DNA of 63,182 bases, filler included, from Kipferlia bialata (taxonomy: Eukaryota), in the NCBI GenBank assembly GCA_003568945.1. It is 6 parts of 6 records of this genome, joined end to end, with 100 filler letters (N's around TTAATTAATTAA, not from the genome) between each part and the next. Parts side by side here need not be neighbours in the genome. Positions count along the whole stretch, not along the records: positions 10,554 to 21,005 come from BDIP01001421.1; 5 more parts are not named here. One strand, 5' to 3'. Positions 4,650-31,894 of the stretch are shown here, in pieces; within the stretch, counting starts at the first letter, position 1; every line of letters starts with the position of its first letter. Position numbers and translations under genes: made by a program. The notes beneath the pieces are model-generated. The model was not told the origin of the DNA. It did no database searches and was given only the letters and a program-made list of their open reading frames with translations.

Positions 4650-7047
4650 CCTCTTATACCTGGATGTAAATTTATCATCATAGCTACCCACCCTGTCCCC
4701 CCCCCCCAATCTCTCTCATACCCTAGGAATAGCACTGTTGCTCTGACCCGGCGTCTCCCTCTCTCTCTCCCTCCCTCCCTCCCCCCACCCCTCTCTCTCT
4801 CTCTATATATATATACATCTTACCCCAGGTATAGCACTATCGCTGCTCTGACCCCCACCTGTTACACAAGGACAGAGGCAGCCATACACAGAATGTCAAG
4901 GTAAGAATAATTACATTCTAGTATACTATAGATTATAGGGTGTATCATATAATGAATCAGAAGTATCGTAATATATACTGTATTATATTGTGTATAGTAG
5001 GACAGAGGCAGCCATACACAGAATGTCAAGGTACACGGATACATCCACTAATATGTCTATACCACCAGCGTTGAGCGTTGCATACATGTTTGGTAGCTAT
5101 CTCTAACCGCAGGCTGGAGGGTGTGATTGCGGGAGAGATTATGAAGGGAGAGACAGAGACTGAGGGAGAGAGAAAGATTGAGAGAGAGATTGAGGCTGAG
5201 GGAGACACAAGGGCCCTTGGCCTAGTAATGCAGTTGGTCAGAGTCAGGGCACTGCAGGTAAATACTAATATATATACATTTGTTCGTAATTCTCCTTCTC
5301 ACCTCAGTGTGTGCTGTACATGCATGCCAGACAGTACACTGCCTGTCTGACTACACTCAGGGGGCTCATAGCAATAGCACCAGGTGAGTGCATCAATGCA
5401 TTGTTCTGCAAATATTGTGTATCATTACAGCTAGGTCCTTACTCTAGACTGTTTGCCACCCTTGTCTGTGTGCACATATTTATCTATACTATACTCTATA
5501 ATACATTCATATATATACTATGGATAATATGTCATGTACTTCACACTATAACCTTATCTAAGGACCTTGTTCTGGTCTGTTTCCCACCCTTGTCTGTGTG
5601 CACATATACATCTATACTAATGAATATACACTAATCATACCATCCCATATGGATACTATCGAGTATATCTTATAGCTAGGCCCCTGCTCCGGTCTGTTTG
5701 CCACCCTTGTCTGTGTGCACATGGGCGAGATGGGCATGGCCCAGCAGTGGATGCAGGTAGAGTATATAGTGTATACCATTATGTGTTATATATATGTGTA
5801 TATGTAAATATATTCATTATAGTGAGTGTATATTGTGTATGTGAGATGGGCATGGCACAGCAGTGGATGCAGGTATGGCATATGTTTATATAGATATAAT
5901 AATTAGATATGGCTCTATGTATACATAGAAGTTGTGTGCATAGTGTTATTATATGGTGGGCGTGGTGCAGCAGTGGATGCAGGTAGGGTATAGTAGTAGA
6001 AGATTTGAGACTCATATGTGCAGGATGTTTCGTCATATGTGTTCGTCTAACCTCAGTATGTCCAGGACAGTCTCTCTCTCTCCTTTCCCCCTCTCTCTCT
6101 ATATATATATATTCTCTCTCTGTACTCTATCTTACACCAGTATGTGCAGGACTGTCTCTCCCTCTATTCAGAGCAGTATGGGCCTGGGAAGGATGACTTC
6201 ACTGGGGACATCACACCCCTAAAGGATGCATATGCGGCACTAGGTAACCTCCGATATATATTTCTACGTCCGTCGGGAATCGAACCCTGACCCCCCAGGT
6301 GTGAGTCTGCTGTCACTTGCCCCAGTGGATAGGGACACTGGCGTAAGGCGTAAGTCGGCCAAGGATGTGGTTGCCACCCCAGCCACACCCCCTGTCATCA
6401 CAGACCTATCCCTGCAGAGTGCATTCAGCTGTATGAGGTGGGTATATCATATATTCATAATGAATTAGGGTATCGTGTGTTGACTAACCTAGCATATAGG
6501 TATAAGTATGTAGACTAAATATATCTGTATGCTCACCCCAGGGCCAGCAAGGCTGTTGACTCTGGTGACCTAGTAGGGGCACTGGACGGGGTGGAGGACA
6601 CAGTGAGGTATTCAGTATATATAGTATATACATGTATATATATTCTATATGGATATGTATAGTGGATAGATGACCTAGTAGGGGCACTTGATGGAGTGGA
6701 GGACACAGTCAGGTATAGTACATAATCATGTGGATATACTGTACCAGTCGTATTGAAATGTGGAGTCTGGGAATATACATACATTCCCTCTGACCCCCAG
6801 GTCCAACCCAGAAGCCACAAGGACACCCCTGCTACGGTATATGAGGTAAGGACAGAATGCATGTATATCATATCATAGTGGCACCAGCGAGAATCGAACC
6901 GTAGTCCCTCCAGTCCTCACCCCCAGGATACTGCACCGTCTGTGCTACCCGTTGGATGTCCAGGACACCCTCTGCGACTGTCTGGATGCCATTGTGTCCC
7001 AGTGCCAGGGGAACAGATGGGCAGACTTCTACCACTCTAGCAAATAG
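4650..7047 (+). CDS. Hypothetical helical protein, 5'-truncated, multi-exon
   Basis: In-frame exons: RLEGVIAGEIMKGE...LVRVRALQ / CVLYMHARQYTACLTTLRGLIAIAP / GPCSGLFATLVCVHMGEMGMAQQWMQ / YVQDCLSLYSEQYG...DAYAAL / ASKAVDSGDLVGALDGVEDTVR / ILHRLCYPLDVQ...WADFYHSSK* (TAG 7045-7047). No family recognised. Confidence 0.55.
6265..6390 (-). mobile_element. tRNA-derived SINE-like or tRNA-Val(CAC)-like remnant inside an intron
   Basis: Minus strand reads GGTGTGGCTGGGGTGG (A-box-like) ... GACTCACACCTGGGGGGTCAGGGTTCGATTCCCGACGG (CT-CAC-AC loop, B-box GGTTCGATTCC). The cloverleaf is not intact. Confidence 0.4.
6879..6916 (-). pseudogene. tRNA 3'-half-like fragment inside an intron
   Basis: Minus strand GGAGGGACTACGGTTCGATTCTCGCTGGTGCCA gives a T-loop/B-box plus an acceptor-like end. 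No 5' half is present. Confidence 0.3.
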
Positions 7048-7365
7048 ATAAGAGAATGTGTAGAAATGAAGGTGTTGAAATTACAAAGCAATCCACACTA
7101 CACCCTTTTGTGTTTTTGTTTCCAATTCTCTTGAATGTTGGCCTCAGTGAGGGTCGGTTCACGCTCTGTTCTCTGTCGCATATCCCAGACTGAGGTTTGT
7201 AGAGTGTAGGCGAAGACATACACTGCTACCTGGGCCCATAGTCTTGTCCTCTGTGTGGAGAGATTGAGAGAGAGACACCCTATCCCAAAGGGTATAGTCT
7301 CTTACTCTGTGCCGACGCTTTAGAGCACAACGAGAGAGGGAGAGACAGAGAGAGAGACAGAGTAG

Positions 7366-9233
7366 ATGGCGCTATCTGCCGATCTATTGATCCTGCTCAA
7401 CGCATTCAGCAACATTGATCTGTATGAAGCAGGTAGGATCAGTATATGCATAGTGGTGTATACATGTATATATGCATTTTATGAAGCGGAGGTCCTTCGT
7501 CTATTGATACTGATCTCTGCAGAGCCCCCCCTCATCTCTCCCTCTCTCTCTGTCACAATACACTCCTACATCACTCACCCCCAGGTGTCTGTGTCTTCAA
7601 CTCCTTATTCTGCATCCCCCCTCCCCCTCACACACCTCTCTCTCTCAGTATACAAACTCACTCCCAGGCGTCTATGCCTTCAAGGTCCAGGCTCTGAATG
7701 AGTCAGGCATCCTGGTGAGTTATATGGCTCTCTTCTCCCTCTCTCATGATGGATCCTTCTCATCCTGCCTATTTCTCTCTCCCTCTCTCTCTCTCTCTTA
7801 CCCGGCACACGCTGTTCCCTTATCCATACAATGGAACTCTCTCTCTCTCTCACTCCACATATCTCTTCACGCTTCTCTCTCTCTCTCTCTCTCTTTATAT
7901 AACCCCAGCACCCCCTGATGTATGCCAATGTGGTAGGGGACCTGAGTGACTATCAGACACTGACTCCGGGGAGATACAGGTACATGACAATATGTAGAAG
8001 AGATAGGAGTATGTACTTATATATACTAGTTGTATACATCTTGATGCTGACCTGAGTGACTATCAGACACTATACATCTAAGAACACAGTACGTATCCGT
8101 AGTCGTCTATACTGACTCACAGGATTGACTCCCTGCCCCCCACCATTGCAGAGAACAGCCCGACATTCTACTCGCAGCCAATACAGGTATTGCATGATGC
8201 ATATACGTGTTACTGGTACAGTAGATGTATTATTAGTATTAGTATTACTATGGTAACTTAATTATTATTGTAGTATTATTATCGTGTGCTCACCTCCAGG
8301 TCAAGTACTGTGACCAGTTCGTGCCCCTGTCCAATCTGCTCAGGTGCAATAAGATATATATAGTTGCGTATATAGGAATCAGTACAGTCTGATTCTCCGT
8401 CTACAGCTTACCCTCTGACTCATCTCCTCTTGTATACTCTTATTCCAGAATGCGTGTTGATCTAGATGCTGACTCCTGTGAGTCAAGTCTGATCCTGGTC
8501 TTCTCTCTGCTGTACCACTCCAAGGATAACCCGGCACCCTTGCCTACCCACCAGAGTGAAATGGAGGTATGAATCCTAACTTGAGAGTGATGTGTATGAT
8601 TATATCGGTACTTACATCGAGTCCCCCTTCTCACTCTAGGTTGTGTCTCGGTCTGTATGCAGTGTCACACATACATATACATAATAGCACGAATATAGAT
8701 CTGTATTACTATATATATATATATGTATATACCCATTTTGATGCCAGGTTGTGTCTCGGTCAGTCTTTAGGGTCAGGCACTGTCTGTTGCCAGGTATGGC
8801 AGTTATATCTACCCACTTCTGTATCTTGACCTCTCTCTCTCTCTGTCTCTCTGTCTCTCTCTCATATTAGGCGCCTCTGCCTTCACCGTGACATTTGATG
8901 ACACCCACTTCTGTGCCCTTGATGTCATGCTGACATGCTGTCCAGCAGGGGAGAAGGCTGTAGTATNNNNNNNNNNNNNNNNNNNNNNNNNNNNNNNNNN
9001 NNNNNNNNNNNNNNNNNNNNNNNNNNNNNNNNNNNNNNNNNNNNNNNNNATATATATACATACATACATTGTGCATTGGATGTCATGCTGACATGCTGTC
9101 CAGCCGGGGAGAAGGCAGTCGTGTTAGGTACATACTCTATAGACTCATGTCAGAGAGTGTGTCTCTCTCTCTCTCCCTCTCTCTAACATCTATCCGAGCC
9201 CCCCATGTCCACCTTCCCCACTGCCAGTCGGGC

Positions 9234-9276
<43 letters not shown>

Positions 9277-9471
9277 ACCCTAGCTGACCCACCAATGTCC
9301 CCCTCCCCCACTGCTAGTCAGGCCCTGCTCACAAGGGACACAGAGGGGGGAGCTAGCTTATCAGGTAATGTAATAGAGTGATGTATATATATAGAGAGAT
9401 TGAGTCAGGCCATATTGACAAGGGACACAGAGGGTGGAGCCAGTCTGTCAGGTAGTATATATAGAGTAATG

Positions 9472-9505
<34 letters not shown>

Positions 9506-10453
9506 TATTGAGTCAGGCCCTGTTGACAAGGGTGGAGCCAGTCTCATATCAGGTATTTCATTGTGTACACAAGTGTGTGTTGCGTGTGTGTCATACTCTC
9601 ACCACTCGAGGAGTCCTCTATCTCTCCCTCTCTCTCTCTCTCTCCAGTTGTAGGAATGGGCATATACATTTATATAAGTCACCCCCCAGGCATGGGCAGT
9701 CCCCTCTCCTCCAAACACTCTATACGTGTCTTACAGTATGAATATATAAATACTTGTATATGTATTGCATTGAATACTATACTCTATCTCACCCCCTAGG
9801 CATGGGCAGCCCCCTCTCCTTCAGACAGAGTGTGCGCATGAAGAAGAGAGATGCAAGGTGTGATGTGGGTATTACGTGGATCTTTATAAATGTATATATA
9901 TAGAGAGACACACACACACACACAGAAACAGAGAGAGTGTGTGCACGAAGAAGAGAGACGCAAGGTCTGGGTTAGTATATATATATACATATATGTGTGT
10001 ATATATATTGAGAGACAGAGAGAGAGCCTATGAAGAAGAGAGACGCAAGGTATTGATTAGTATGTATATGGAGATAGATAGAGATAGAGAGGGAGAGAGA
10101 GAGAGTGTCCATGAAGAAGAGGGCCGGGAAGTATGGGCGAGTGTATGTACATCATCGATTGTTCTATCCTCTACGCGATTCCTCACCATTAGTCTTGTCC
10201 CAGATGAGGATGACATGCCAGAGTTCTATGTTTTTATATCTAGTATTGTCATGTCTATTAACATATACTGACTGTTACTCGATTCCTAACCTTAGTCTTG
10301 TCCCAGATGAGGATGATATGCCAGAGTACTATATATGTATATATATATATATTTTCTTTTCACGGTTATTTCATATATACTATTCAATGCCTCACCCCCA
10401 GCCTTGTCCCAGATGAGGATGACATGCCAGAGTAGCACATTTTACAAATATAA
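7366..10453 (+). CDS. FAM135-like protein, N-terminal part, 3'-truncated
   Basis: MALSADLLILLNAFSNIDLYEAGVYAFKV...FYSQPIQVKYCDQFVPLSNLL...VVSRSVFRV...FTVTFDDTHFCALDVML parallels the FAM135 N-terminus (FYNVDLFQRGYYQIRV...SRVFQILYRNEEV...VPVMFDYFHLSVISV). Confidence 0.65.
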
Positions 10454-10553
10454 NNNNNNNNNNNNNNNNNNNNNNNNNNNNNNNNNNNNNNNNNNNNTTA
10501 ATTAATTAANNNNNNNNNNNNNNNNNNNNNNNNNNNNNNNNNNNNNNNNNNNN
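10454..10553. other. Artificial scaffold linker N44-TTAATTAATTAA-N44
   Basis: Six-frame-stop 12-mer at 10498-10509 flanked by 44 N on each side. Confidence 0.97.
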
Positions 10554-10559
10554 GAAGAG

Positions 10560-10605
<46 letters not shown>

Positions 10606-10667
10606 CGTACAATGACACACTCAATTGATACTTACTGGATACTGACAGTGACATCCCTACCCCTCAC

Positions 10668-11476
10668 CTTCGTTGGACTGGTTGAGCTCTCTCTGCCTCT
10701 TCAGCCCCAGCAGGGCAGCTCTCTCAAAGGCAGTGTCGACACCGTCACCCGCCTTGGCAGATGCCGCAAACACCTCGACTATGTGTCTGGCATCAGACAG
10801 AGCCCCCTGGGCCCTGACAAGGAGAGGCTTGACTATACGGGTGGACTCAATGTCGTCAACCTGGCGTCAGGCAATCATGTCATATCATGTGGTGTACAAC
10901 GGATACTGAAAATAGGACAGGACTGATTCGCAAACAAACCGAAGAAGACAACATCAAAAGTATACCTTGTTGGCAATGACGACCAGAGGGAAAGGAATGC
11001 GCTCCCTCTCCCCGCCCTCCCCGTCACTCTCCATTTCACTGTCATCATCCCCGTCCCCAATGCACAGGGCGTCGTCCAGACTACTGCGCCACCTGTTCAG
11101 AGAGTCCACAGTGCTTGGTCGAGACAGGTCGAAGACAAGCATGCACGCATCTGCCCCACGGAGGGACGCCACGCTAATCTGGCTGAACGACTCCTGACCG
11201 GCAGTATCCCAAATGGCCAGCTGCACCTTGGTCTCAGGTCCCTCAGTGCCGTCCTCGTTTGTTTCCCGCACCAATACACTCTTGTTCAGGAAGTCAAGCC
11301 CAATCGTGGCCTTGTATGCATTGGAAAAGTCGTTATTCACGAACCTGATGGGGTTAGTGACCTGGTAAACCACTCAGAACCATACAACAACTGCACAGCA
11401 TGTACCTCCGCATAAGGGATGTCTTCCCAACGGAAGAATCCCCTAGGATCACCAACTTCAGGTTCCTGCTTGACAT
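10668..11476 (-). CDS. Rab family small GTPase (Rab7-like, divergent), 3 exons visible, C-terminus truncated
   Basis: MSSRNLKLVILGDSSVGKTSLMRR / FVNNDFSNAYKATIGLDF...IWDTAGQE...RGADACMLVFD...VVIANK / VD...SAKAGDGVDTAF. G1-G5 motifs are present. Confidence 0.9.
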
Positions 11477-11697
11477 TGACACTTGTTCACGGACTCACAG
11501 GCTGTGTAACTGCTCTGGCCCTTCTTCTCCTGTGCTGAAGAGCAGAACTGAGTTCACTCGCTGCGCCCTTATTGTAGAATGAAAAACGGCTGAGTTCCAG
11601 TAATACAGCCTCCTTGATACTCTTTACACTGAGTGTCAGGCGCTGTCCTACTGACTATTCGGGGAAAGGATAAGGTGACTGTGGGCAGTTGTGTTGC

Positions 11698-13395
11698 ATG
11701 CTGCCCATGTGGGGAAATGGCGATCCCTTGAGTGAGCGGGTTGCTGAAGAGCAGCGATTTTCCTTGGGTGAGTACTGGAATTGTATACTGATGCTGATGT
11801 CACTTGTCTTGTATTGGCGCGGTTTAAATCTTCTAACTCCAGGTCCGCAAGCATATATGGACCGGTTCAGCGTGCCAATATATGTACATGATCTGTATGA
11901 GCAGCAGGTACGATGTCTCCCCTTGTACTGTTCACTGGTTGTCTCTTGCCACTAAATCAGGCCAAGACCCGGCCTAGTGATCCAGTTCTCTTTGCTGAGC
12001 ACTACTTTAGGGATCTGGACTCTGGCGCAGGTATGTAACTCTGTGCAGTCCAGTATGGATCGTTGTCCCCTTACCCAGCTGTACTGTACCGGACGTATGA
12101 CTTCAGTATCAGTATCAGTATCATAGATCTATCATAGATACTGATACTGATACTGACCCAGCTGTACTGTACCGGACGTATGACTTCTGCACTGCCACCA
12201 CCCGCAACACCCTTGCCCTGCTCTCCAACATTAGGAAGGGGGTGGCGGGGTTTGATGCCTCAGCCCCGTCCCAGGGAGATGGGTCCGACCCAATATCAGA
12301 CCTGGGTACTCCTGACCTACCCGCCCAGGCCCTGTCCATACCGGACTGGACAGAGCTGTTGCAGGTGGGGGGTGTTACTAGTGATGTGGTGTGTTGGTGT
12401 ATGACTGATACTTGTATTGGGTATCCCAGAGTCCCTATGGTGCCTGGCCCCACCCCAGATGATGTGCCCCGACTTCCCGTCCCGGGTGCTGGATGATGTG
12501 GCAGAGATACTCCTGGCCAACCCATCGCTGCAGGGCACCAGCACCATCCCGGGGGAGGAGGGTCGGAGCGTGAGTGACTTCACCCCAGCAGAGTTCCTGC
12601 CAGTGCTCGAGACACGTGTGTTCTTTTCACGCTTTCTGAAGAAGGTATCTTCTGCTATCCAGATCCCACAGCTGCAGTGTCACTGCCCCTGTCTTACATA
12701 CTTACATATTCTCTGACAATGTCGACTGCAGGTCCTGACTGCCTTCCAGACCCAGTATCAGTATCAGTATCAATATATACAGTAGTGCCTTCTCTATAAA
12801 CACTGATGCTGATACAGGTCCTGACTGCCTTCCAGACCCAGTATCAGTATCAGTATCAGTATATAGTAGTGCCTTCTCTATATATACACTGGTACTGATA
12901 CAGGTCCTGACTGCCTTCCAGACCCAGCTGGTGGAGGCCAAGCCCGAGACCCCGAAGGACAGGGCTGGGGCCAAGAGCCCGAAGGCGGCCAAGGCCCAGC
13001 ACCCGAAGACAGGGCGGGTCAGGGTCAACGGGATGAGTGCCGTACTCAGTGCGGTGTTGGTTGCAGAGAAGGCCACGTGCGTGTGCCCGCCCCCCTACCC
13101 GTGCCGCAAGGCTGCAGTGCGTACCGAGGATGCCCTGAAGGAGTGGAACAAGGCCAGGGACCAGGAGCTGCTGGCCCAGCGGGAGGTGGCCTGTCAGAGC
13201 AAGGCAGTGTCAGTGTCAATGGGGTCTGCCTCGCCCTCTGCCCTGCGGAGGACTGGGTCTGGGTCTGGGTCTGGGTCTGGGTCTGGTCTGGGTGGCATGG
13301 GTACCCCGGTTGCAGTCAGAGCACCCCTCACCATCGAGAGGATATTCCTGCTCTTCTGCTACTACCTCTCCTCCCAGGAGATCCTGCACCAGTGA
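11698..13395 (+). CDS. CSTPP1/C11orf49-like tubulin polyglutamylase complex regulator, multi-exon
   Basis: AYMDRFSVPIYVHDL...FAEHYFRDLDSGAAVLYRTYDFCTATTRNTLALL...LSIPDWTELLQMMCPDFPSRVL...FTPAEFL...FFSRFL matches recalled C11orf49 (EYFNSVCQGTHILFREFSFVQATPHNR...LLQLLCPDFP...YSEFL). Start is ATG 11698 or 11707. Confidence 0.7.
12073..12187. repeat. 32-bp direct repeat flanking a 51-bp palindromic (CAGTAT)3...(ATACTG)3 insert
   Basis: ACCCAGCTGTACTGTACCGGACGTATGACTTC occurs at 12073-12104 and 12156-12187. A perfect 19-bp inverted repeat lies at 12104-12122/12137-12155. Confidence 0.95.
12729..12927. repeat. Three 27-bp acceptor+exon-start copies separated by (TATCAG)n...CTGATA spacers
   Basis: CAGGTCCTGACTGCCTTCCAGACCCAG occurs at 12729, 12815 and 12901. 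Confidence 0.95.
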
Positions 13396-14160
13396 CCGCC
13401 ACCTCACAAAACAAGGCTGAGGGGTATATGCAGTGCTATGGCTCTATGGAGATGGACAGGGTTGTGTGGTGGCTTGTTGTATTATGTGTTTATTGTATTT
13501 GGTTATCCCCTGTGTGTCACTCCATTCTAAGCAATAGAGACTCTGGCTGTATCTATATGACTGTGGCAGCGGATGGGACATATGTGTATTTACATATATA
13601 CTGGAAGGGCGGTGAGTCACCAGTGGTGACAAAGTGAATACTATCGCCCCACTTGGAATCCCAAATATCATAGTCAGCTATCATGCCCAGAATATCACAC
13701 TAATACTCTGGTACCATAGCCAAGCACACCAGTCAAAACGTACCATGGCAACTCCAATTCAGCACATCATGCCAAAAGTGCCAGATTCCAAGGGGAGAAC
13801 CATCCGATAGGTAGGTCAACCCTGCAACACGAGGGAGACGACACCATACAAGGTGATACCTCATGTGTTGATACATCTCACTTCGGGAAAAGCTCTGATA
13901 GCCACTTCTAGACCACATACCCTGGACCCAGACACGTGCAGATAGAGCAAACCCTTCTCAAGGGCTCAGAGCACAGAAGGGATCAGAACCAGCCACACCA
14001 GTATTAACAGGACACACCGCTGACAGTACCGTGGTGCACTTACACATACCGGTGGACACTGTCGATGTAAACACAGTGAGTGTACACATATGGACATGGG
14101 GGCACATGCGTGGCAACAATGGCCCCTGTGTTGGATACAGTGTGCATCAGTCACCAGTCC

Positions 14161-15540
14161 TCAGTCCTCCTCTGTTGTCTCCTGGTCGATGCCTGACCAG
14201 GTGTCAGTGTCAGAGGTGTCACACAGACTGTCCTCCAGGGCATCACCTACATCACCTACATCACCTACATCACCATCCCCCTCCCCACCACCATCACTGT
14301 GTGTGGAGTCCGTAGGTAGGGAGGGTATGTCCCCAGGGCCATGGGGAGCAGCCTTCCCACCCTTGGTGACCATAGCCACTAGTGATGCCCAGACACCCCT
14401 GACCACGGCATACCCCACCCCCCCGCCCACCTCTGGGGCAGCATCCCCCACCGCCACAGACACCACCCTGACACCTGCAGCACCCATGGCCCTCAGACAG
14501 GCACCCACGTTCACACCCAGCACACACACCTGGTATCAGTATCAGTGTCAGTATCTGTCAGACACCGCTCCATATGATACTGATCTATATATTGCATATA
14601 TCCACACACCTGGACCCACGATGCAGTGGGGGCTCCCGCCACAGCCTGCCGCACCTCTAGGTAGAGGAGGGGGAGAGAGGCGTGGAGGGCGGCAGGGGAC
14701 ACGAGTAGAACCCTACAGAGTGTGACTAGGGATGGTAGTGCGGCACAGAGAGAGAGGGCGGGCCCCCAGTCCAGCAGCCATAGCACATTGAGCCAGACGC
14801 ACACCAGACACTCCGCTGTCCTGGGCATAAAAGGGAAGGATGGGGTGGGGGGGGATGAGAGGGGGGGGGGGGACACGATAACCTGAAGAATGATAGACCC
14901 AAGAATAACAAAGTGTTCACTGCCCCCTGCCTGTCTCTCAGCAGCTGTCTTGATGATACTGATACTCATACTGATACTTTTGATACACGGACACATGATA
15001 CGCATACCTGCCTATCAGCAGCATGTGGATGCCGATGGACTGGTACTGCGGCACCGACCCCCATATCAGTAGGGTCTCGGTCACAGAGAGAAGGGCGTCA
15101 GGAGGAAAGAGGTCAGAGTACCCTACTACACAAGAGACATCAGAGGGGTGCGGGTCCGGGTCTGACAGAAGCCCCTCTGATAGTACTGTGGCTGCTCGCA
15201 CAGAAGTGTCCAAGGCCACCCACAGCCGGAGGGCAACGGGGGTGATGTCCTGAGACCCCTGACACGTGGGGTGGTCATTGGGGAACATCACCCGCCACAG
15301 ACACCATAGGGCGCACACCCCGGCCACTCCCAGCAGCATCGTCCGTAGCATGGTCCGGCAGACGCTGCTGAAGTATGGGGAAGAGCCAAACCGAGCCAGA
15401 GACCAGCTAACAGATAGGGTAATCGCCACAATGGTGCTGGTGACTGTGCACCATCCTATGAACCAAAATGTGGCAGGAAGAGACTCAACTACCCGTGTCA
15501 GGGAACAGACGTCAATCAATGCCTCTAAGCCTGGCATGCC
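14161..15540 (-). CDS. Hypothetical multi-pass membrane protein with acidic C-tail, about 3 exons, start uncertain
   Basis: Hydrophobic segments (FWFIGWCTVTSTIVAITLSVSW; LLGVAGVCALWCLW; LVCVWLNVLWLL) joined through GT-AG introns to ...DQETTEED*. Confidence 0.5.
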
Positions 15541-15707
15541 AGGATGGCGGTAAAAGAGTGACAGACAGAGCAATAGTTGGAAATGACATTGCAAAAGCGA
15601 AGGCAATGTGTCAACCATTGCATCAACGGTTGCATCAATGATTGCAACCAAAACGTTGCGAAGAGGAAAGCTGTCACGAAGAGCATTCTTTACGACTGAT
15701 AACACAA

Positions 15708-15809
15708 GTAAGTGGGTCAGGGTAGTAGATTGACGCTCTTAACGTGTGGCTGAGTGTCATAAGGGTGTTTATTTTGTTGCTGCTCTTCCCTTCCGTTTGC
15801 TAACCTCAG
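15708..15809 (+). other. Probable 5'-UTR intron of profilin
   Basis: GTAAGT at 15708 and GCTAACCTCAG ending at 15809, 2 nt before the ATG. Confidence 0.6.
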
Positions 15810-15811
15810 AA

Positions 15812-16408
15812 ATGTCTTGGGATGGAATTCTGAGCCAGATGCTGACCTCCAAGGGCAACTGCACTGAGGGTGCTGTCTACGGACGCAACGGTGCTGTGTG
15901 GGCCAAGTCTGCCAACTTCTCCCTCAACCCTGAGGTTTGTAGATGGTCATGATGGGTCTTTGACAATTTGACAAGTTGCCCTCTCTTCCTCTGTTCTCAA
16001 CCCAGGGCATCATCCAGTCCATGTTCTCTGACGCTGGCCGCGAGTACCTCCAGACCAACGGACTTTACATCTCCAACTCCCGCTTCAGATTTGTTCGCGG
16101 AGACGATGAGGTATGAGTGAATGTACAGTGATCATAACAATTACACTCTTCCTTTCCGTACAACATGTTGATGTGTCCCCTCATATTATCACGACCACTA
16201 TCAATATGGTACAGAGCCTTGTGCTGACTTCCAGGTGATCATCATGGCCGCCTCCAAGCCCGAGGACGAGAACCTCCCCCACGGAGCCTTCTTCATCGCC
16301 ACCAACCAGACCGTGGTGTGCGCCGTGTTCCCCGCCCGCACCTTCAAGGGCGCTGCCTCCCTCGACGCCCACGCCCTCGCTGACTACCTCAAGACATCTG
16401 GGTACTAA
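15812..16408 (+). CDS. Profilin, 3 exons, complete
   Basis: MSWDGILSQML...EGAVYGRNGAVWAKS / ...LQTNGLYISNSRFRFVRGDDE / ...ATNQTVVCAVF...ALADYLKTSGY*. Strong C-ending codon bias; AATAAA near 16493. Confidence 0.93.
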
Positions 16409-16938
16409 GCAGGCACTTTGGTGCACCCAGGTTTTGTGGTGCGACAAGCTGCTCTGTAGGTCATTCTCCCAGCAGTGTGTTCCTCTTGTTGGAATAAATG
16501 TGTGTGTGTGTGTGTCTTTTCAGTATTGTGATGTCGTGTATACATGTTTTGGTTGAGTTTGAAAGAAGGTGGTTTGGTAGTATTTGTGGCAATTGGCTCC
16601 TCTGTGTATTGTCACTGGTGTGATCAAGGGTGTGTATCAGTCCCCAGCAGACAGATGTTCATACCCTAGATGGTATTCCCAACGTGATACTCATGTCATA
16701 TGACTGACTGTGTCAGAGCGGTTGCTCGTAGAAAGTTGCCTGTAGAGTGTTCAATACCACTTCATATAGTATGAGAAGTCAGTGCTGGATACATCGTGTA
16801 AACTCTGTATGACAATGCTAGGCCTAGTCACTGTGCTTAATACCTATCATCATGAATTCACTCAGGCATTGGGCAGTAATCAGGTCTTGGTTCTTGGAAG
16901 GTATTAAGTCTGGCACCCGTAGACATGTACAACGATAC

Positions 16939-19900
16939 TCAGTTGCAAGTGAGTATCCTCCCATCTATACATTTCTTCTTAGCCTCAGTGTCTTTGTCTG
17001 ACCACAAATCAGTACTGCACCTGACCACCCCATCTGCATGTACGTGTCTATTAATATATGAATGTGTGTGTGTCCATGTCACACCATGTGCACCCTGAGT
17101 CTGTCCTCTATGTCTGGGGTGTACCAGTGGGAGTGGAGGCACTTCCTGGCCTGGTGGGTGAGACATTAGAGAGGCATGAGGCCATACAGAGGCATGCATG
17201 TGAGTGTGCATGTATGGATACTGGGATCACTCATACAGGCACGGATAGATGACGGGGGTAAGATGCAAACAAATAGACACGGTGCATGTTCATCCATATA
17301 CTATAACTAGTATGAGCAGTATTCAACCACACCCATCCCACACAGTATGTCATAGAACAATACAAGATGACATCTGAACAACCCCACAGGACAGAGTCTC
17401 ATGAGCATGTATATATAATAATGCAATAGCACTCCCTACCAGTGTGAGTTCCTGCTTCCGCTGTGCCTTGTTGGAGGACAGAGGTATGCCAACTGGCGTC
17501 AGTGCTAGTATGGTATGCAAATGTATGGGGTATCAGGTAAAAGTAGAGTATAGCCATTGATATAGGTATCAGTGCCAGTATACTCACGCAGCAGGCACAA
17601 TTCAGATACACGGCACCATACACCTCTCCGGCAGGTATATATATATCATACCACATTCGTATACACAGAGGGGTAGCACCCGTACCCTTCTCCAGGAGGT
17701 ATGGGATGGAGTACACAGGCTGGGCTCCTCGCTCATAGGCTGACAGGGCCTGGGGTGGGTATGGAGACACGGAGACGCACTCATACATATATGTATATAT
17801 ATACACGTGTATAACCACAAAAGACACAAATATAAAGAGGTATGAGTGTCAGTCCAGATATATATACACATCCCCCGATACCTTCTTGGATGCAGGTAGT
17901 GCTAACACAAACACCCTGTCAATCTGCAGTGCCTTGAGAGGCCTGGTAGGGTGGTAGAGAGAGGTGTGGGCCAGGAGTGGGGGGAGGGACCCAAACTTAG
18001 CCTGGAATCAGTGGTTAATACAATTATTCAGTGGTTGTAACATTGGTATGCATTATGACTGTGTTATACATGTAAAATACTATTAGGATTCTGCTAAACC
18101 AACCATATATATACACTATTGAATTGTCAAACACATACATATACTGGTACAAACCCATGAAGGAGTGTGTCTGTATATATATATTACACACCTGACACAG
18201 GGGACACAGGAAGGGACACACATGCTCGTTGGCAGTCATAGTGTCTGAGTGTAAGATGGATATGGAGAGGAATGTGTGCACTTTCCCACCAATACACGCA
18301 TCATATGGGTGCATACATGTACACATATACATCCATGCACACACTGATGCCCCCATACATACATACATGGATATACCTAGACACCGCCTGGGCACCTTGC
18401 GCCCAGTGCAGTCAGTCACACCGACCCCAGCCACACTCTCAGGCAGCAGAGAGACACGGTCGAGGGTGGCCTGGGTCAGCACAACCTGCTCATATACACG
18501 TATACATGGAGGTATGGATAGGTATACTGGCATGGTGTAGGGACCGCTACAGGTGGGGCCAACAAAGACACTCTCACCATTGAGAATCGTATATATATGT
18601 GTGTATACGATGCATGCCCACCTGCACCGCCCTGAGTCTCTTTGCTGTGAACATGCCCCCGTCCCCCACAGACGCAGAGGCAGGCATCTTGGCTGAGGGT
18701 AAGGAATTACAATGTACTATTATAGGTCAGACACAAGGTATGAATGCAGGGCATATGGGACAGGTATCCCACACGCAACGACAGGATAATGAGACTGAAT
18801 ACACATGCCACCTTGTATGAAAGGGAGTGCCCCTGCAAATGTGAACACATTGAAGAAGGCATCAAATGCCGCATAGAGGCACTGCTGCTTGGTCAGAGGC
18901 CACTGGGCCCAGTTAGACATGGACACCTGGCGTCAGTGGATATGGGTATATGTACAGAGGATACTGGCCCTGACCAGCAGAAGGAGTGTACCATACCTTT
19001 CTAGACTTGGGGGTGGCACTTCCACACCCTGGGGTGAGAGGAGGGTGAGAGGAGGGGGTAGTGGAAGAGAGATACACTGAATACCTATAGCTGTTCTACA
19101 TATGTAGAGTTTGAGAGCCAACCACCCTATCACATAGATGCGTGATGTCCCTGCTAGACTATCCATTCGTCACTACGATAAAATACAGTACATCAGCCCC
19201 TACCTAGCCCCTCTGCGACCACCCCCATCTGCAGGGAGCCATACCTCAGTTGGGTCATGTAGGGATGGATGTCTGCGGTCGGGGGGGGGGGACATATGGA
19301 GATATCTTGCGCCCTGACCACCCTCCCTCTACTTCTACATACCCATATATATTCCCACACCCATACCTACACTCTCTAGCAGGGGCTTCCCAAATGACTT
19401 CAGGTACTCTGCCTTGTCTGCCTGGGGGCCTAGGGGTAAGGGGGCACATAACATACTGAATACTTCATATATACAACTACTACAACTGCAAGTGTGATCT
19501 AACGGGGCAGCGTCAGTGGTTGAAGCTAAGAGGAATAACCTATGACGATCCTATCCAGATTGCAATGCCATACTCTACCCCTGTACAATATATGAGGTGC
19601 TCCACCCCAGAGACATACACATACATGTGTGACCCCATGCACACACACCCTGACACTGCCTGCACTAGGCGAGGTATATATATGTGTAGGTGTGTCGACG
19701 CCATGCACAAATAGATAGGTATGTATACCCTTGATGAGGTAGAGGGGCTGGCCGTGCTGGCCTGCCCTGTCAAGGAGGTCAGAGAACAGAGGGGATCTGC
19801 TATCAACACCATGAGTATTACCAGAAGGACTCTAGGGGGGAGCCACATGCTGTGTGAAGCCATTGATGCACTGATATTGTTGCATAACTACAAAATGACA

Positions 19901-20860
19901 TCGAAACACACCTATGCCTTTTGAATACAAATGCAACCACTCCCATATATACCCCCACCCACCTGTTAGCAATGTCCATAGACGACCCCGGCGTGACATG
20001 CAGCACAAAGGACTCCCTGGGTGAATAATGATATAGGGTATACTAATATACAATATATATATATATATATATTGTATATTATATAGGGTGACAAGTCAGA
20101 CACAGGTACACAGCATACATATATACACACTCCCGAGTGTTGCCAGATCCGCACAGAGAAGTATCCACACACACACATACACCCGCACCTGAGGGTTGCT
20201 AGTTGTATGACACTGATGGGAGAGAACTGTCCCCTCTGGAAGGCAGGTCTCCACTCGCTGAAGGGTCAGGCGGAGGGATATAGTATGCACACAGCTGAGT
20301 ATCGATATGCACAGGCACATCTGGGTGTATGTGTGTATATGTATATATATATACTTCCACCCCACGTACAAGTCCACCCCCAGGACGGGTTGGGTCTGTA
20401 GATACTTGACCACACGCCGGATATCGGCAGGCTGGGGGTCAGAAGATGTAACACTCTTGACTCTTGTTACGCGAGAAATCAGGGGGGGGGGGTTATGGTA
20501 TATCTGTAACCCGATATGTATGGTATATCAACCGTCACCTGCTTCTCTATGTGTATGAAGTAGCACCGCACGTGATGGGTGGGAAGTAGCTCCAACGTGT
20601 TGAGGCATCCACTCAGCTTGCCTGATAGGGTAAGACTAGGTCAATATACGCACATAATGTCTATAGCAACTCTTTCGCATCTGCCTGGGCTGTGCGGGAC
20701 ATGTCAGATATTGTGTAGTGACTTGTACATACACATATCCATGTATCCCTATATGGTATTGACACCCACCCCCCGTATCGAATCTGCCTGGGCTGTCTCT
20801 GCTCTGCCGTACTGCCTCCAGTATGGACGCAAGGTCAGAGTGCGGGTTGGACCCAGTGGC
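16939..20860 (-). CDS. DEDDy 3'-5' exonuclease domain protein (WRN-exo/EXD/Mut-7-like), 5'-truncated, multi-exon
   Basis: The spliced ExoI motif reads VLGVDF|EWRPAFQRGQFSPISVIQLAT and the ExoIII region reads SMSNWAQWPLTKQQCLYAAFDA. An unrecognised C-terminal extension ends ...DGRILTCN*. Confidence 0.8.
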
Positions 20861-20952
20861 CTGAGGGGTGAGGGGAAGAGGGATATGGGGACATTGGTAC
20901 CGGTATCAGAATTGGCTCAAGCTATTAATAAGAGATTAAGAGGGGGGAGGGG

Positions 20953-21005: not shown

Positions 21006-21105
21006 NNNNNNNNNNNNNNNNNNNNNNNNNNNNNNNNNNNNNNNNNNNNTTAATTAATTAANNNNNNNNNNNNNNNNNNNNNNNNNNNNNNNNNNNNNNN
21101 NNNNN
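21006..21105. other. Artificial scaffold linker
   Basis: TTAATTAATTAA at 21050-21061 within N runs. Confidence 0.97.
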
Positions 21106-21154
<49 letters not shown>

Positions 21155-21162
<8 letters not shown>

Positions 21163-24100
21163 AGGTGGGCTCTGCCATCCCATAGGTGTATATACAAGGT
21201 AGATATGCACGTAAGATCATTACCGTAGAAGACATGATTCTTGCAAATACCAATGTATATCCACGCCACTCACCGTCCAGCAGTAGAATCGAGGGTCTCC
21301 CGGTCAGTGCGATGGCCAGACTGCACCTGATGGGTCAGTGAAATATGGTATGTATATACTATATACACATACTATATACACTTGTATGATGTCAATGTAA
21401 TGGCCAGACTGCACCTGAAGGGTCAGGGGCGTATTACAATATACAAATGATGCCCCCAGACAGGGTGTATCTCTCTCTCTCCCTAGCTCTATACACATAC
21501 CCATACTACACATATAATATACTGTACCTCCGCTGCATGCCCCCAGACAGGGCCCCGATGCGGTGGTCCCTCTTCTCGGTCAGGCCTAGGGGTAAGGTCA
21601 TACACAAGGAGAGGGAGGGAGAGAGGGAGGGAGAGAGTAAAGAACCACACACTCTAGCGTACCTACGCTCTCAATGAGTGGGTCAACTGCAGCCAGTGCC
21701 TCCTGTCTAGACAGACCCCTCAGCCTCATGTAGAAGACAACCTCCTCGTGCACAGTAAGCTCGAGGTGGAGTCTAAGGGGTCAGTACGTCTGTACGTGTG
21801 AACACATACAACAGTAACAGTTCAAATACACTAGATCTATATACTGTCTCTCACCTGTCATGCTGTGGACACACTCCCAGCTGACTCAGCAGCCTGGCCT
21901 TGTCCAACCTGGTCACATCGCCACCAGCTATGTAGACAGTGCCGCTACGGTTAGTATATATAGTCGTATGTATATACATATATTATGAATGTCTGTAAGT
22001 GTGGCCTTGTCCAACCTGGTCACATCGCCACCAGCTATGTAGACAGTGCCGCTAGAGTTAATGTCTGTAGTCGTTTGTATATATATATACTATGTAGGTA
22101 TGTATAGTACTTGTCCAGCCTGGTCACATCACCCCCAGCTATGTAGACAGTGCCGCTAGGGTTAGCATGTAAAGAGTGGAATGAATACAAAGCTATGTAG
22201 ACAGTGCCACTGAGGGTAAGGAAAGGTAGTTGGAATGTATGATGACACGACATAAAACTATACTAACACAATAGGTGTGTGGTCCCATCAACAGTACCAC
22301 TGAGTGTTAGTATGTATAAATATTGAATCGAAAGAGTGGTACACTGGAAACCGCAGTATACCTAGTTGGTCTGAGTGTGCCGCATATGAGGTTGATGGTG
22401 GTAGATACACATTCATATATGTATATAGATAGATATATACTCATATATATATATATATATATATACTATACCTTGTGGGTCTCAGTGTGCCGCATATCAG
22501 GTTGATGGTATATATACAGTATATATGCTTATAATACTATACTCATATAAAGATATAAGTATACATATATACCTCGTTGGCCTGAGTGTGCCGCATATCA
22601 GGTTGATGGTGGTATATATACGATATACATATGAATACACTCATATATACATGTATAGATGTTTCATATACCTAGTAGGTCTGAGTGTGCCGCATATCAG
22701 GTTGATGGTGGTATATATATATAGATAGATATATAGATATATAGATATATAGATATATATTTGTGTATATATATATGTACTATAATGTACTATATGTTAC
22801 CTAGTTGGTCTGAGTGTGCCGCATATCAGGTTGATGGTGGTAGATACACATTTATACATGTATATATATAGATATATACTCATATGTATATATATACTAA
22901 TGCATTCTACCTCGTTGGTCTGAGTGTGCCGCATATCAGGTTGATGGTGGTATATATACAGTATATATACTCATAATACTATACTCATATATAGAAATAT
23001 ATATATACTATACCTAGTAGGTCTGAGTGTGCCGCATATGAGGTTGATGGTGGTGCTCTTGCCAGCACCGTTCTCTCCTGGGGTGTGAGCAAATGTATAC
23101 ATACGCATATTTATATATATATAGAGAGAGAGAGACGAGTTAGAGGTCATTCGAACAAGAGCAAGGAATATCCATATATACACTTAGCATCCCGAAGCAC
23201 ACGAGAAACAGACACAACACACACATATACAGGTATATAATCATTGAGAGAGAGATACCTAGCAATCCGAAGCACGTGTCCTTGTCGACAGCAAGGGAGG
23301 TACGGTGAACGGCAGTGTTGGCTGGGTCTCTACCCGTGGCCGGGAATACCTGGGTATGGGAAAGAATACAGAAAGACAGCGTGTGAATAATAGTAGAAAT
23401 ATCACTCCTAGATCGAATATGAGAGAGGGCCGGGAAAACTCACGCAACACACTAAGCACTATACCTGCAACTCTATTGTATCCATTTATACCAGTTTATA
23501 TACATATACCTTCTTGAGCTGTGTGATGACCAAGGGTGGCAGACCACTTGCCATATATATAGTACGTCATGCTTTTAGAGAGTGTACATAATATGTAGTG
23601 TATAGTACATACCTTCTTGAGCTGTGTGATGACCAGAGGTGGCAGGCCACTCTCTCCCTCTGTCTCTCCCTCTCCCCCTCCCGCTGTCCCTGTCTCCCCC
23701 TTGACCAGTGTCTGCACCCTCTCTCTCTCAAGGGCGACATCGGCATCCTCATCTACAGTTAGGGGCGTATAGATATACTTACTTATGATATATAGTATAT
23801 AGTAAACACTATGTGTCTGTATTCTCTCTCAAGGGCAACATCGGCATCCTCATCTGCAGTGAGTATAATTTGTATGAGGTATTGTCATCCCATACATGTA
23901 TACTACACAAATACCAGTACCTTCCTCGTCTCTCTGCCCATCTACCAGTAGGGCAGTGGTCTCTGTACCAGAAGACTCTCCCTACAGTGAATGATATAGA
24001 TATAGCTAGAGGTAGTAATAGTGGGAAACAAATGTTCACTACACTCTATATGTACAGCTGTGCAGTGCATATCCTCACCTCGCAGGCGTTGGCCCCGTAC

Positions 24101-24353
24101 TTCTCTCTCTCTCTCTCTCTCAATGTGTATGTATAACTCATATATAAATATAGGAACACTATGGTACATTGCATCCTCACCTCGCAGGCCTTGTTCTTGG
24201 CCTTGGCCCCGTACTTCTCTCTCTCTCTATATATATATCTATACATACAGAATGTAGCTACTAACCTCGCAGGCCTTGTTCTTGGCCTTGGCCCCGTACT
24301 TCTCTGGGAATATGTACCCAAGGAAGAAGAGAGGGTTCAGACGGGACTAGAAT

Positions 24354-24393
<40 letters not shown>

Positions 24394-24700
24394 GAGATGT
24401 ACCCGAGGAAGAAGAGGGGCTAGGGTAAGTTACATATTAATAATTTAGAAAATGACAGATATAGAGAGAGAGAAGGAAGAAGTGGGGGTTCAGACGGGAC
24501 TGGGGTAGGAAATATTGAAGCTCAAACATTGACAACACAGAAATATCAATACGCTATACAGTAGAACCCTACCTCCCCAGCCGTTGGGAGTACGTTGTCC
24601 AGATAGCTGCCTATCAGTCCATAGACCAGACCCTCAAGCACAAGCATAGCACAACCGAAGAGGAATTGTCTACCTCTGGGGGTAAGTATCGGGTATGGAC

Positions 24701-24731
<31 letters not shown>

Positions 24732-26344
24732 ACACTCCCCAAGCACGCATGCATGAAACAGTAGAAGAGAGAGTACTCTATATACATACATCAGTGTGAG
24801 TCCAGTCATATCGACAATGATGAGGGAATATAGAGCAGTCGCAGAAACTATACCATATATCACATACCTCAGTGTAAGTCCAGTCATATCGTCCATGGTG
24901 ATCCTCTCTCTCCCCCTCTCTCTCTCTCTCTCTCTCTAATACTACTTATATATATACCTCAGTGTCAACCCAGTCATATCGTCCATGGTGATCCTGGAAT
25001 CCAGAGGGCCAACGGGGGTGAGGTAGGCTAAGAGTAAGGAGAGAGAGAGAGAGAGACAGAGTTACACAAGATGTTGAAGAGCAGGAAGAACGCTATATAT
25101 ATATGAACAGGTAAGGAGAGAGAGAGAGAGAGAGAGAGTAGCCAGAGGGCCAATTGGCGTGAGGTAGGTGTTAGATTGGAGTGAGAAACCAACAGAGCAG
25201 AAAGACATAGTACACGTTGAGCGGGAGGAAGACACACACGCACATGTATACTGAACTAAAACATGAATGGAACACATGTAGTTGAATAACGGTTCTAGTA
25301 CTCTACGTACGTACACAGAACGCTACATATACATGAACAGAGACAGAGAGACTACATACACAGCATGTTGAAGAGCAGGAAGAAGGGCCAGACGTATATG
25401 CAGTCAGGGACACCGAGGAGCAGGAACACATTCTGGTAGATGGGGGCCTAAGGGTTAGATATATATATATATACATAGAGAGAGAGAGAGAGAGTCTGGG
25501 ACGCCGAGTAGGAGGAACACATTCTGATAAATAGGGGCCTGGCAATAAGGGGGTAGAGGGGGGGGGGGAGAGAGAGAGAGAGAGATTATGTGACACGCAG
25601 CAGCAGTAACTCTCTGCACGTGTATGGAAATGGATGAACTATACCTGGAACAGTAGGATGATGACTGAAGATATCTGTAATAGAGACTGCCAAGAAGATT
25701 GCTGTCTTTGTCTTTTTGATAATACATATAACATCAATAATGGCCAGTAATCAATAACATCAATTCCCTAACTACACACCTGGAACAGTAGGATGATCAC
25801 TGCCAGGAAGATGGCCGTCTTAGTCTTTGTGAAGAATATACCAGCACACAATAATAGTAATCAATTCTCTCAGTGTGTACCTGAAATAGCAGGATAATCA
25901 CGGCCAGGAATATAGCCGTCTTTGTACCTCTAAATACTAGTCTCTAAAAGGATAAAATACCTGGAATAGCAGGATAATGACTGCCAGGAATATAGCTGTC
26001 TTTGTCTTTGTGAAGAATGCGGCATAGCACAGAGAGACACCGGCACAGGCTATACCCCAGGAGACACCTGGTGGTTAAAGGGTGTAGAGAGAGAGAGAGA
26101 GGGAGAGAGACACCGGCACAGGCAATGCCCCACGAGATACCTAAGGGTTAAAGGGTGTATAGGGGGAGAGAGAGAGAGAGAGAGAGAGAATGCCGCATAG
26201 CACAGGGAGACACGGCACAGGCAATGCCCCACGATACACCTATAGTCAGAAAAAGGGTGTAGAGAGAGAGAGAGAGAATGCCGCATAGCACAGAGAGACA
26301 CCGGCACAGGCAATGCCCCAAGATACACCTAGGGATTAAAGGGT

Positions 26345-26396
<52 letters not shown>

Positions 26397-28790: not shown

Positions 28791-28822
<32 letters not shown>

Positions 28823-29303
28823 CAATGAGGTCAGAGACAATGCCCTCAAAGATGAGGAGCATTTGTGTACCCTAATGTAAGAGAGAGAGAGACAATGAGG
28901 TCAGGCACAATGCCCTCGAAGATGAGGAGCAACTGAGTGCCCTATGGTGAGTGCTATACAGTATCTATAGTATATATAGAGAGTATATGTGTATACATGT
29001 ATATATATACTGGACAATGAGGCCAGAGACCATCCCCTGGGGTTAGAAAGAGAGAGAGCATATAGATATACATTCACTTACCACAGAGTACATACATCAA
29101 TATATAGGCATCATATATATCTATATATACATATACTCATTATTGTTGCTGTTCCCATTGTTACATCTATACATATACATATATACTCTGTGTATTATAT
29201 ATATATACATATTATACCTGTATCATGATGTTGGTCTGCATGCAGTTGATGTAGCCAATGAGGTCACTCTATACAATAGTACTATCCACAGAGTACTATA
29301 TCA

Positions 29304-29341
<38 letters not shown>

Positions 29342-31555: not shown

Positions 31556-31655
31556 NNNNNNNNNNNNNNNNNNNNNNNNNNNNNNNNNNNNNNNNNNNNT
31601 TAATTAATTAANNNNNNNNNNNNNNNNNNNNNNNNNNNNNNNNNNNNNNNNNNNN
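31556..31655. other. Artificial scaffold linker
   Basis: TTAATTAATTAA at 31600-31611. Confidence 0.97.
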
Positions 31656-31825
31656 CTATACCCTCAATACAGAGTCCGTATATTATAGGACAACAGATAG
31701 ATGCCAATGAGTGATTGAGTTATACTTGTCAGATATGATCTATCCCCTCTCTCCCTCACTCTATGTGTTCCTTATGTCCCATGTTCTATATATCATGGCA
31801 TATATGACTCTCTATCCCTCTCTAT

Positions 31826-31894
31826 GAGTGGTTAAGGCGATAGCCTAGAAAGCTATTACTTTCTGAATGCGTGGGTTAAATCCCACTTCTGTCG
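31826..31894 (+). pseudogene. tRNA-Ser(AGA) pseudogene, 5'-truncated
   Basis: GAGTGGTTAAGGCG D-arm; ATAGC-CT-AGA-AA-GCTAT perfect anticodon arm; long variable region; GTGGG-TTAAAT-CCCAC T-arm with a defective loop. The 3' acceptor strand TTCTGTCG has no 5' partner. Confidence 0.75.

What the first reader, a model, noticed from the sequence alone, without database searches (positions are those of the whole stretch)
14523..14613. Apparent intron birth: whole intron bounded by an 11-bp direct repeat containing CAG|GT and filled with the same hexamer
Seen: the predicted minus-strand intron 14530-14609 has CCAG|GTGTGTG at both ends (plus strand CACACACCTGG at 14523 and 14603). It contains GTATCAGTATCAG and GATACTGAT in inverted arrangement, and its acceptor reads GATACTGATACTGATACCAG. 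Established: duplication of an AG|GT protosplice site around an insert is a recognised intron-gain route (introner TSD and tandem duplication models). Inference: one process makes new introns when it hits CAGGT inside an exon and makes echoes when it hits an existing junction. That could explain the extreme intron density.
Basis: partly seen in the sequence, partly recalled or inferred. Interest (0 to 1): 0.8.

Follow-up and report, generated by a model that had tools for sequence, protein, structure and literature searches.

The report
Repair-scarred intron among splice-junction echoes
An 80-base intron in a gene of a free-living relative of Giardia is spliced out and bounded by an 11-base direct repeat; it is likely the scar of the same sloppy DNA-break repair that has copied exon ends into many nearby introns, but whether its position is evolutionarily new is untested.

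Summary
Observation confirmed, with one base misread. The intron (14530-14609, minus) is skipped in an RNA-type contig, and the spliced gene gives a 369-aa orphan protein named KIPB_005844 (Kipferlia bialata). Its 11-bp boundary repeat is the longest of 205 modelled introns (0.017 expected; about 7-10 expected genome-wide by chance). Its 3' end and hairpin resemble the fillers of two neighbouring junction duplications, so a break-repair scar is likely. Birth is not shown: no ortholog was found. It is not an introner and not a decayed exon duplicate. The density claim is unsupported: other boundary repeats match chance, and only 1 of 90 AG|GT repeat pairs spans a whole intron. The larger result is the 'echoes': 37 of 206 modelled introns carry partial copies of the adjoining exon end. 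These copies differ from the exon mostly at silent sites (61 of 82; 23 expected), and from each other too. That points to copying from diverged working alleles at existing introns, not target-site duplication. Closest known: Daphnia staggered-break introns and amphioxus 'mirages'.

The parts
14530..14609 (-). 80-nt GT-AG intron, phase 0, between Gln and Val codons of P0001
   Evidence: skipped in a contig of run X1; spliced frame equals P0001
14603..14613 (-). first copy of the 11-bp direct repeat: last 4 nt of exon 2 plus first 7 nt of the intron (donor)
14523..14533 (-). second copy: last 4 nt of the intron (acceptor) plus first 7 nt of exon 3
14533..14555 (-). hexamer array (ATACTG)n next to the acceptor; holds CTGAT 10 nt from the 3' end, the commonest position of branch-point-like motifs in this window
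   Evidence: branch-point use is inferred
14575..14584 (-). 10-nt inverted copy of the array, predicted to pair with 14535-14544 (fold-back hairpin)
   Evidence: z -1.5 as RNA for the whole intron, -2.6 as DNA for the filler
14610..14820 (-). exon 2 of the host gene, directly upstream of the first repeat (no older intron remnant)
   Evidence: covered by the X1 contig
14161..14529 (-). exon 3 of the host gene, ending at the stop codon
15008..15537 (-). exon 1 of the host gene (P0001, 369 aa, source name KIPB_005844, no family or relative found)
14821..15007 (-). intron 1 of the same gene, with a third hexamer array at 14954-14978 and no echo
12031..12161 (+). neighbour intron with an acceptor echo: 32-bp exact repeat (12073-12104 and 12156-12187) around a 51-nt hexamer hairpin filler
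   Evidence: spliced whole
12645..12903 (+). neighbour intron with two acceptor echoes: 27-bp exact repeat at 12729, 12815 and 12901 around hexamer hairpin fillers
   Evidence: spliced whole
25433..25960 (-). example of a multi-copy donor echo: three intronic copies of the exon end; all 9 scored differences between adjacent copies are silent
   Evidence: gene model only, no RNA laid here

Best explanation
This spliced 80-base intron is likely the scar of one imprecise DNA double-strand-break repair event, of the kind that likely made the two neighbouring echoes, and it likely gave this chromosome an intron at a CCAG|GT site that had none. Shown: splicing, the 11-bp repeat, the hexamer array at the acceptor with an inverted copy, and the likeness of the 3' end to the two neighbours. 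Inferred steps: (1) a break fell 7 bases into what is now exon 3; (2) the downstream end was extended back over those 7 bases and CCAG, then over intron-end sequence taken from another template (a neighbouring intron 1.6-2.4 kb away, or an allele that already had an intron here), slipping on the hexamer; (3) the new strand folded back on itself, giving the inverted copy, and was end-joined to the upstream end, as polymerase theta does (recalled property); (4) the duplicated AG|GT supplied donor and acceptor and the hexamer supplied a branch-point-like CTGAT at the usual distance, so the insert is removed without changing the protein. In the wider window the same class of event acts almost only at existing introns, mostly with a diverged working allele as the likely template; it lengthens and renews introns far more often than it makes them.
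For: Splicing. Repeat of 11 is top of 205 introns, 0.017 expected. Best 3'-end matches are the two neighbouring echo introns, whose copies have no mismatch over 26 and 24 exon bases and whose fillers are the two strongest hairpins of 41 (z -6.7, -4.4; target -2.6). Four of five introns with long hexamer arrays lie within 2.8 kb (301 of 200,000 random draws; chosen after the fact). Exon, not old intron, lies upstream; it is the only one of 90 AG|GT-centred repeat pairs of 9 bp or more with modelled exon on both outer sides. K. bialata has PolQ and Spo11 and lacks Ku70 (PMC8516963 supplement rows). Daphnia new introns carry 4-12-bp repeats of an adjacent exon end (PMC4202315 passages).
Against: No ortholog, so gain is unpolarised. 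Only 5-6 bases go beyond splice consensus and they are a GT run: 2 of 205 other introns start with the same 7 bases and 90 of 205 end in CCAG, about 0.4% for this junction; about 7-10 such cases are expected genome-wide. The 7-base exon part is shorter than any of the 47 echoes (12-67, though the search could not see below 12). Allowing mismatches adds nothing: 5 and 6 of 205 other introns score as well on each side. The whole-intron hairpin is weak as RNA (14 of 200 shuffles fold as well). The likeness to neighbours lies in a periodic array that could arise independently around the branch point. An 18-base AT-rich stretch separates the first repeat from the hairpin, unlike in the neighbours.
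Confidence: 0.5

Rival explanations
1. An old intron whose donor happens to match the start of the next exon; the hexamer hairpin arose later inside it.
For: CAG|GT is consensus at both ends; 2 of 205 other introns start with the same 7 bases, 90 end in CCAG. About 7-10 chance cases genome-wide. No extension of the repeat with mismatches. Intron 1 of the same gene has a hexamer array without any repeat.
Against: 0.017 expected in the window, and the one case falls in one of only three introns with the array at the acceptor plus an inverted copy, the other two being echoes.
Confidence: 0.3
2. A short acceptor echo at an existing intron, after which the older upstream part was lost precisely (deletion between the two CCAGs, or reverse-transcribed loss). 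The sequence is new, the position old.
For: 47 echo junctions against one whole-intron case show that the process acts at existing introns. Exon 3 starts with GT, so the echo is itself a donor.
Against: Needs a second, precise event; no remnant lies upstream.
Confidence: 0.12
3. An introner or MITE with hexamer terminal inverted repeats and a target-site duplication.
For: Three nearby inserts have inverted hexamer arms.
Against: Flanking repeats are 32, 27 and 11 bp, against 3-9 bp for introner TSDs (PMC9860276 passages). Interiors are unrelated; the best matches elsewhere in the window are only the periodic array, score 18 of 69. A published screen scored K. bialata as introner-free (supplement row).
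Confidence: 0.04
4. Not an intron: reverse transcriptase skipped a hairpin between direct repeats (template-switch artefact; recalled phenomenon).
For: Direct repeats plus an internal hairpin are the setting for such artefacts; the RNA support is one contig of one run.
Against: GT-AG ends, branch-point-like motif at the usual distance, 80 nt with in-frame stops if retained, and no intron-retaining contig among the 2 laid.
Confidence: 0.02
5. On the echoes only (a separate question): they are an assembly artefact, diverged haplotypes chained in tandem, which would also explain the silent differences.
For: Silent-site bias is what two alleles would show. No DNA run was listed to check. One duplicate at 55164-55216 flanks an NN gap.
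Against: Joins run from mid-exon into mid-intron with no gap and no shared overlap; arrays reach 3-7 copies; some echoes have no mismatch yet a hairpin filler; X1 contigs show no other letters over 10700-20900, though contigs drop variants.
Confidence: 0.1

Closest known systems
Daphnia pulex new introns attributed to staggered double-strand-break repair (PMC4202315, passages; PMC3443670, passages)
   Same: A short repeat of an adjacent exon end (4-12 bp there, 11 here) at the opposite end of an intron with an interior not derived from the exon.
   Different: There, gains are polarised by intron-less alleles; here none is available. Daphnia gains were put down to NHEJ, which metamonads lack (PMC8516963 passages), so alternative end joining is the likelier route. 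The interior here resembles neighbouring intron ends.
Amphioxus 'mirages' and human junction-spanning minisatellites such as F7 intron 7 (PMC3087553 and PMC1557585, passages)
   Same: Tandem copies spanning a donor or acceptor junction, units of tens to about 160 bp, silent to splicing, proposed as a route to new introns.
   Different: Reported at a few loci with whole units 81-100% alike. Here 37 of 206 modelled introns are affected, the exon part stays alike while the intron part is barely alignable, and differences fall mostly on silent sites; the passages read report no such bias.
Intron gain by tandem genomic duplication of AGGT-bearing exon sequence (Rogers model; PMC3443670, passages)
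   Same: A duplicated AG|GT serves as donor and acceptor with no change to the protein.
   Different: The interior is not a copy of the flanking exons.
Introners (PMC9860276, passages and supplement rows)
   Same: Splice sites recruited from a duplicated site; inverted repeats near the ends.
   Different: No family of end-to-end similar copies in the window, variable repeat length, species scored as introner-free.

Membership tests
Spliceosomal GT-AG intron | Removed from the transcript at GT...AG ends | tested here: met
   one contig of run X1 skips 80 bases; spliced frame equals P0001
Spliceosomal GT-AG intron | Branch-point motif at the usual place | tested here: inconclusive
   CTGAT starts 10 nt from the end, the mode for CT[AG]A[CT] (26 of 65); use not shown
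Break-repair intron gain (Daphnia type) | Boundary repeat above the background of other introns | tested here: met
   1 of 205 at 11 or more, 0.017 expected
Break-repair intron gain (Daphnia type) | Intron absent from outgroups or other alleles | not testable with these tools
   no relative found; the exhaustive profile search could not be run
Tandem genomic duplication (Rogers model) | Intron interior copies the flanking exon sequence | tested here: not met
   75-123 of 126 other exon ends align as well over 8 settings; exon 3 side 325 of 1000 shuffles
Introner | Family of introns alike from end to end | tested here: not met
   window only: matches confined to the periodic array; published screen ie = 0
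Introner | Short TSD (3-9 bp) and/or TIR | tested here: inconclusive
   inverted arms present but the 5' arm starts 26 nt into the intron; repeats are 11, 27 and 32 bp
Mirage-type junction duplication (the echoes) | Tandem copies spanning an exon-intron junction | tested here: met
   47 junctions in 37 of 206 modelled introns; local-alignment scores of 13 or more: 30 donor and 32 acceptor, 0.07 and 0.0 expected
Mirage-type junction duplication (the echoes) | Normal splicing at the authentic site | tested here: met
   2 of 2 echo introns with RNA joints shown are skipped whole; the other 35 were not tested
Mirage-type junction duplication (the echoes) | Whole units alike, with length polymorphism between haplotypes | tested here: inconclusive
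   intron parts weakly alike at best (6 of 17 single-copy echoes at p <= 0.05); polymorphism not testable

The most novel reading that the evidence does not exclude
Kipferlia introns are continually rewritten by a hybrid repair route: a break in an exon is extended on a strongly diverged allele (about 0.19 silent changes per site) into that allele's intron and then end-joined. Each intron thus keeps a stack of fossil exon ends from past mating partners, a one-genome record of outcrossing in a fornicate, and when the event hits a bare AG|GT, as at 14530-14609, a new intron is born.
Probability: 0.35. Interest if true: 0.85.

Novelty: new variant of a known kind. Interest (0 to 1): 0.62.

Why it matters
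The genome paper left open whether K. bialata's 124,912 introns are ancestral or gained (PMC5874029, section 12). A repair-made intron would be a candidate gain in a lineage without NHEJ or known introners. The echoes matter more: if real, about one intron in six carries datable duplications whose silent-site pattern tests for sex and allelic diversity in a fornicate, explains fast intron turnover, and misleads gene prediction (my model read 12 echoes as exons). I found no description of this in Kipferlia in searches; the library lacks most subscription journals and I read passages of only three of the Kipferlia papers listed.

Tried and rejected
No whole genome was held, so all counts come from one 63-kb window and a self-trained gene model. 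No RNA holder was listed as such; X1 and X2 are RNA by guess, and X1 behaves as spliced RNA. Homologs: only P0001 itself among 837 longer candidates and 7,996 near-length candidates; 40 pattern matches in metagenome contigs, none confirmed; no usable Atlas hit; no Pfam family for the three exons; the exhaustive profile search was never run because the queue was full. A by-eye 19-base extension of the repeat into exon 2 was not significant. Error-prone copying alone was rejected for echoes: 6 silent and 0 replacement changes in 57 bases at 28341-28662 cannot come from filtering. Echoes as alternative exons was rejected for most: 41 of 47 are partial exons and most lack a splice site at the inner end. 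The test of filler against old intron was flawed in 13 of 47 rows (empty filler) and is weak: 9 of 47 at p <= 0.05, 6 of 17 single-copy, and 0.24 and 0.33 for the two hexamer echoes. A second whole-intron candidate at 58081-58163 is an ordinary donor echo by eye. Telomerase addition of the hexamer was considered; other fillers are TA-, CT- or GA-rich, so it was dropped untested. Searches gave no paper on allele-templated junction duplication. Earlier scan notes by place, sequence and one word set gave nothing.

Full report
Observation. The 11-mer lies at 14523-14533 and 14603-14613, and once more at 27793. On the minus strand 14609-14530 is an 80-nt GT...CCAG segment. One contig of run X1 joins 14522 to 14603; X2 laid nothing here. 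X1 is RNA by guess only, but it skips GT-AG segments throughout 10700-20900 (15 joints shown, 12 not shown). The spliced frame gives 369 aa identical to P0001, which its source names KIPB_005844 of Kipferlia bialata. The retained form is out of frame and has stops. The acceptor was misread by one base and the hexamer covers about 33 of 80 bases.

Chance. The 16 other RNA-seen junctions have boundary repeats of 1-4. I trained a gene model on those 17 introns and self-trained it on the window. It returned 15 of the 17, which is not an independent test; the two missed were echo introns that it split. After merging 12 echo 'exons' there were 205 introns, 16 of 17 right, and 206 after one hand correction. 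Pairing each intron with other exons gives 8.2e-5 per intron for a repeat of 11 or more: 0.017 expected, 1 seen. At lower lengths there is no excess: 5 or more, 13 seen and 15.8 expected; 7 or more, 1 and 1.7. With 138 introns between exons of 25 nt or more the expectation is 0.008, or about 7 per 124,912 introns. Against this: 2 of 205 other introns start with the same 7 bases and 90 end in CCAG.

Anatomy. After the 7 repeated bases come 18 AT-rich bases, then a hairpin whose outer arms are 14584-14575 and 14544-14535. The array puts CTGAT 10 nt from the end, the modal place of branch-point-like motifs. The interior is not a decayed copy of either exon. Its 3' end matches the neighbours at 12031-12161 and 12645-12903 best of 205. 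Both are spliced whole and hold exact 32- and 27-bp repeats of the old acceptor plus exon start around hexamer hairpins. These are the two strongest hairpins of 41 fillers; fillers fold somewhat better than 131 control intron ends (6 of 41 against 9 of 131 below z -2; p 0.004). Four of five introns with long arrays lie within 2.8 kb.

The echoes. Exon ends align inside the adjoining intron far above chance: 30 donor and 32 acceptor cases at score 13 or more, 0.07 and 0.0 expected. Requiring the copy to span the junction gives 47 junctions in 37 of 206 introns. The exon part has a median of 36 (donor, n 21) or 27.5 (acceptor, n 26) bases, the matching intron part only 4 or 9; periods are 67-157 in 45 of 47; 41 of 47 are partial exons. 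In 46 echoes scored (one had no phase; codons split by introns skipped), 61 of 82 differences from the exon are silent and 62 are at third positions. Keeping each substitution type and placing it at random gives a mean of 23, maximum 37 in 20,000; a neutral copy beside an exon that takes only silent changes predicts 44% (p 1.7e-8); 16 of 24 introns have more silent than replacement differences, 3 tie, 5 have fewer. Partial-exon echoes alone give 56 of 75, about 0.19 silent and 0.019 replacement changes per site; adjacent intronic copies differ from each other silently in 29 of 48 cases. New acceptors carry a branch-point-like motif in 9 of 13, as do old ones, against 34 of 565 internal YAGs. 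Likeness of filler to the old intron is weak and that test was partly flawed. Inference: both copies were under coding constraint for most of their divergence, so the second came from a working allele; no second copy of P0001 was found to suggest a paralog. One-ended invasion of a diverged allele followed by end joining (recalled mechanism) accounts for long exon parts, short intron parts and fillers with their own splice signals. Frames and exon calls outside 10700-20900 rest on the model alone, and no DNA run could be laid, so assembly error is not excluded. The published K. bialata assembly used short reads and SPAdes (PMC5874029, section 7); I did not establish that the window comes from it.

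Back to the intron. Of 90 AG|GT-centred repeat pairs of 9 bp or more, only this one has modelled exon on both outer sides. It looks like an acceptor echo with a 7-base exon part and no old intron in front. The single-event reading is a repair-made gain on this chromosome (0.5); chance on an old intron (0.3) and replacement at an old position (0.12) remain. The two hexamer neighbours have no mismatches, so for them and for this intron the template could be a nearby intron end and not an allele. K. bialata has PolQ and Spo11 and no Ku70 (PMC8516963, supplement rows; one supplementary file was unreadable).

Comparison. It works like Daphnia staggered-break introns, with repeats of 4-12 bp (PMC4202315, passages), but membership needs an intron-less allele. 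It fails the tandem-duplication test (model as in PMC3443670, passages) and the introner family test (PMC9860276, passages; supplement row ie = 0, file cut when stored). The echoes resemble amphioxus mirages (PMC3087553, passages) and human junction-spanning minisatellites (PMC1557585 and PMC2812944, passages); an earlier scan note (e1-7810567) led me to these and to the spectrum-aware null. Hairpins in long introns of diplomonads are known (PMC6679479, passages). Other papers in searches were seen as listings only.

Verdict. A real intron and a plausible but unproven gain; the density claim is unsupported. The prevalence and silent-site pattern of the echoes are the surprising part. New variant of a known kind; interest 0.62.

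Noticed in passing
window 10454-10553, 21006-21105, 31556-31655, 42100-42199, 52642-52741: The window is six pieces of about 10.5 kb joined by N spacers; long G runs lie at or near several piece ends.
   Followed up: partly
window 22357-23054: A donor-echo array of about seven copies, period about 100-110; my model misread it as tiny exons and introns, which inflates the 206 count slightly.
   Followed up: partly
window 31656-42099: 0 of 31 modelled introns carry an echo, against 16 of 36 in 21106-31555: echoes are patchy by gene.
   Followed up: no
window 28035-28300, 24676-24957, 30116-30498: 6 of 47 echoes cover a whole short modelled exon, some with both splice sites; possible alternative exons, no RNA laid.
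   Followed up: no
window 12079-12105: This echo has AG before and GT after and is 27 nt, so it could act as an in-frame cassette exon; the X1 contig skips it.
   Followed up: partly
window 21895-22164: The nearest echo is identical to the exon over 50 bases while the adjoining intron parts match at 41 of 53: exon and intron parts of one unit diverge unequally.
   Followed up: partly
window 4650-10450 and 23900-26400: By eye, fillers after donors are often GA-rich and fillers before acceptors CT-rich, a mirror symmetry around exons.
   Followed up: no
window 55164-55270: A 53-bp duplicate flanks an NN gap, likely a scaffolding artefact inside an echo array.
   Followed up: no
window 13296-14238: One unspliced X1 contig spans the stop codons of both convergent genes, suggesting overlapping 3' regions.
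   Followed up: no
window 155-259 (minus): A distant intron with two hexamer arrays in the same orientation, no hairpin and no echo.
   Followed up: partly
window 10554-11476 (minus) and 15812-16408 (plus): A Rab-like GTPase and a profilin-like gene; names recalled from the translations, not tested.
   Followed up: no
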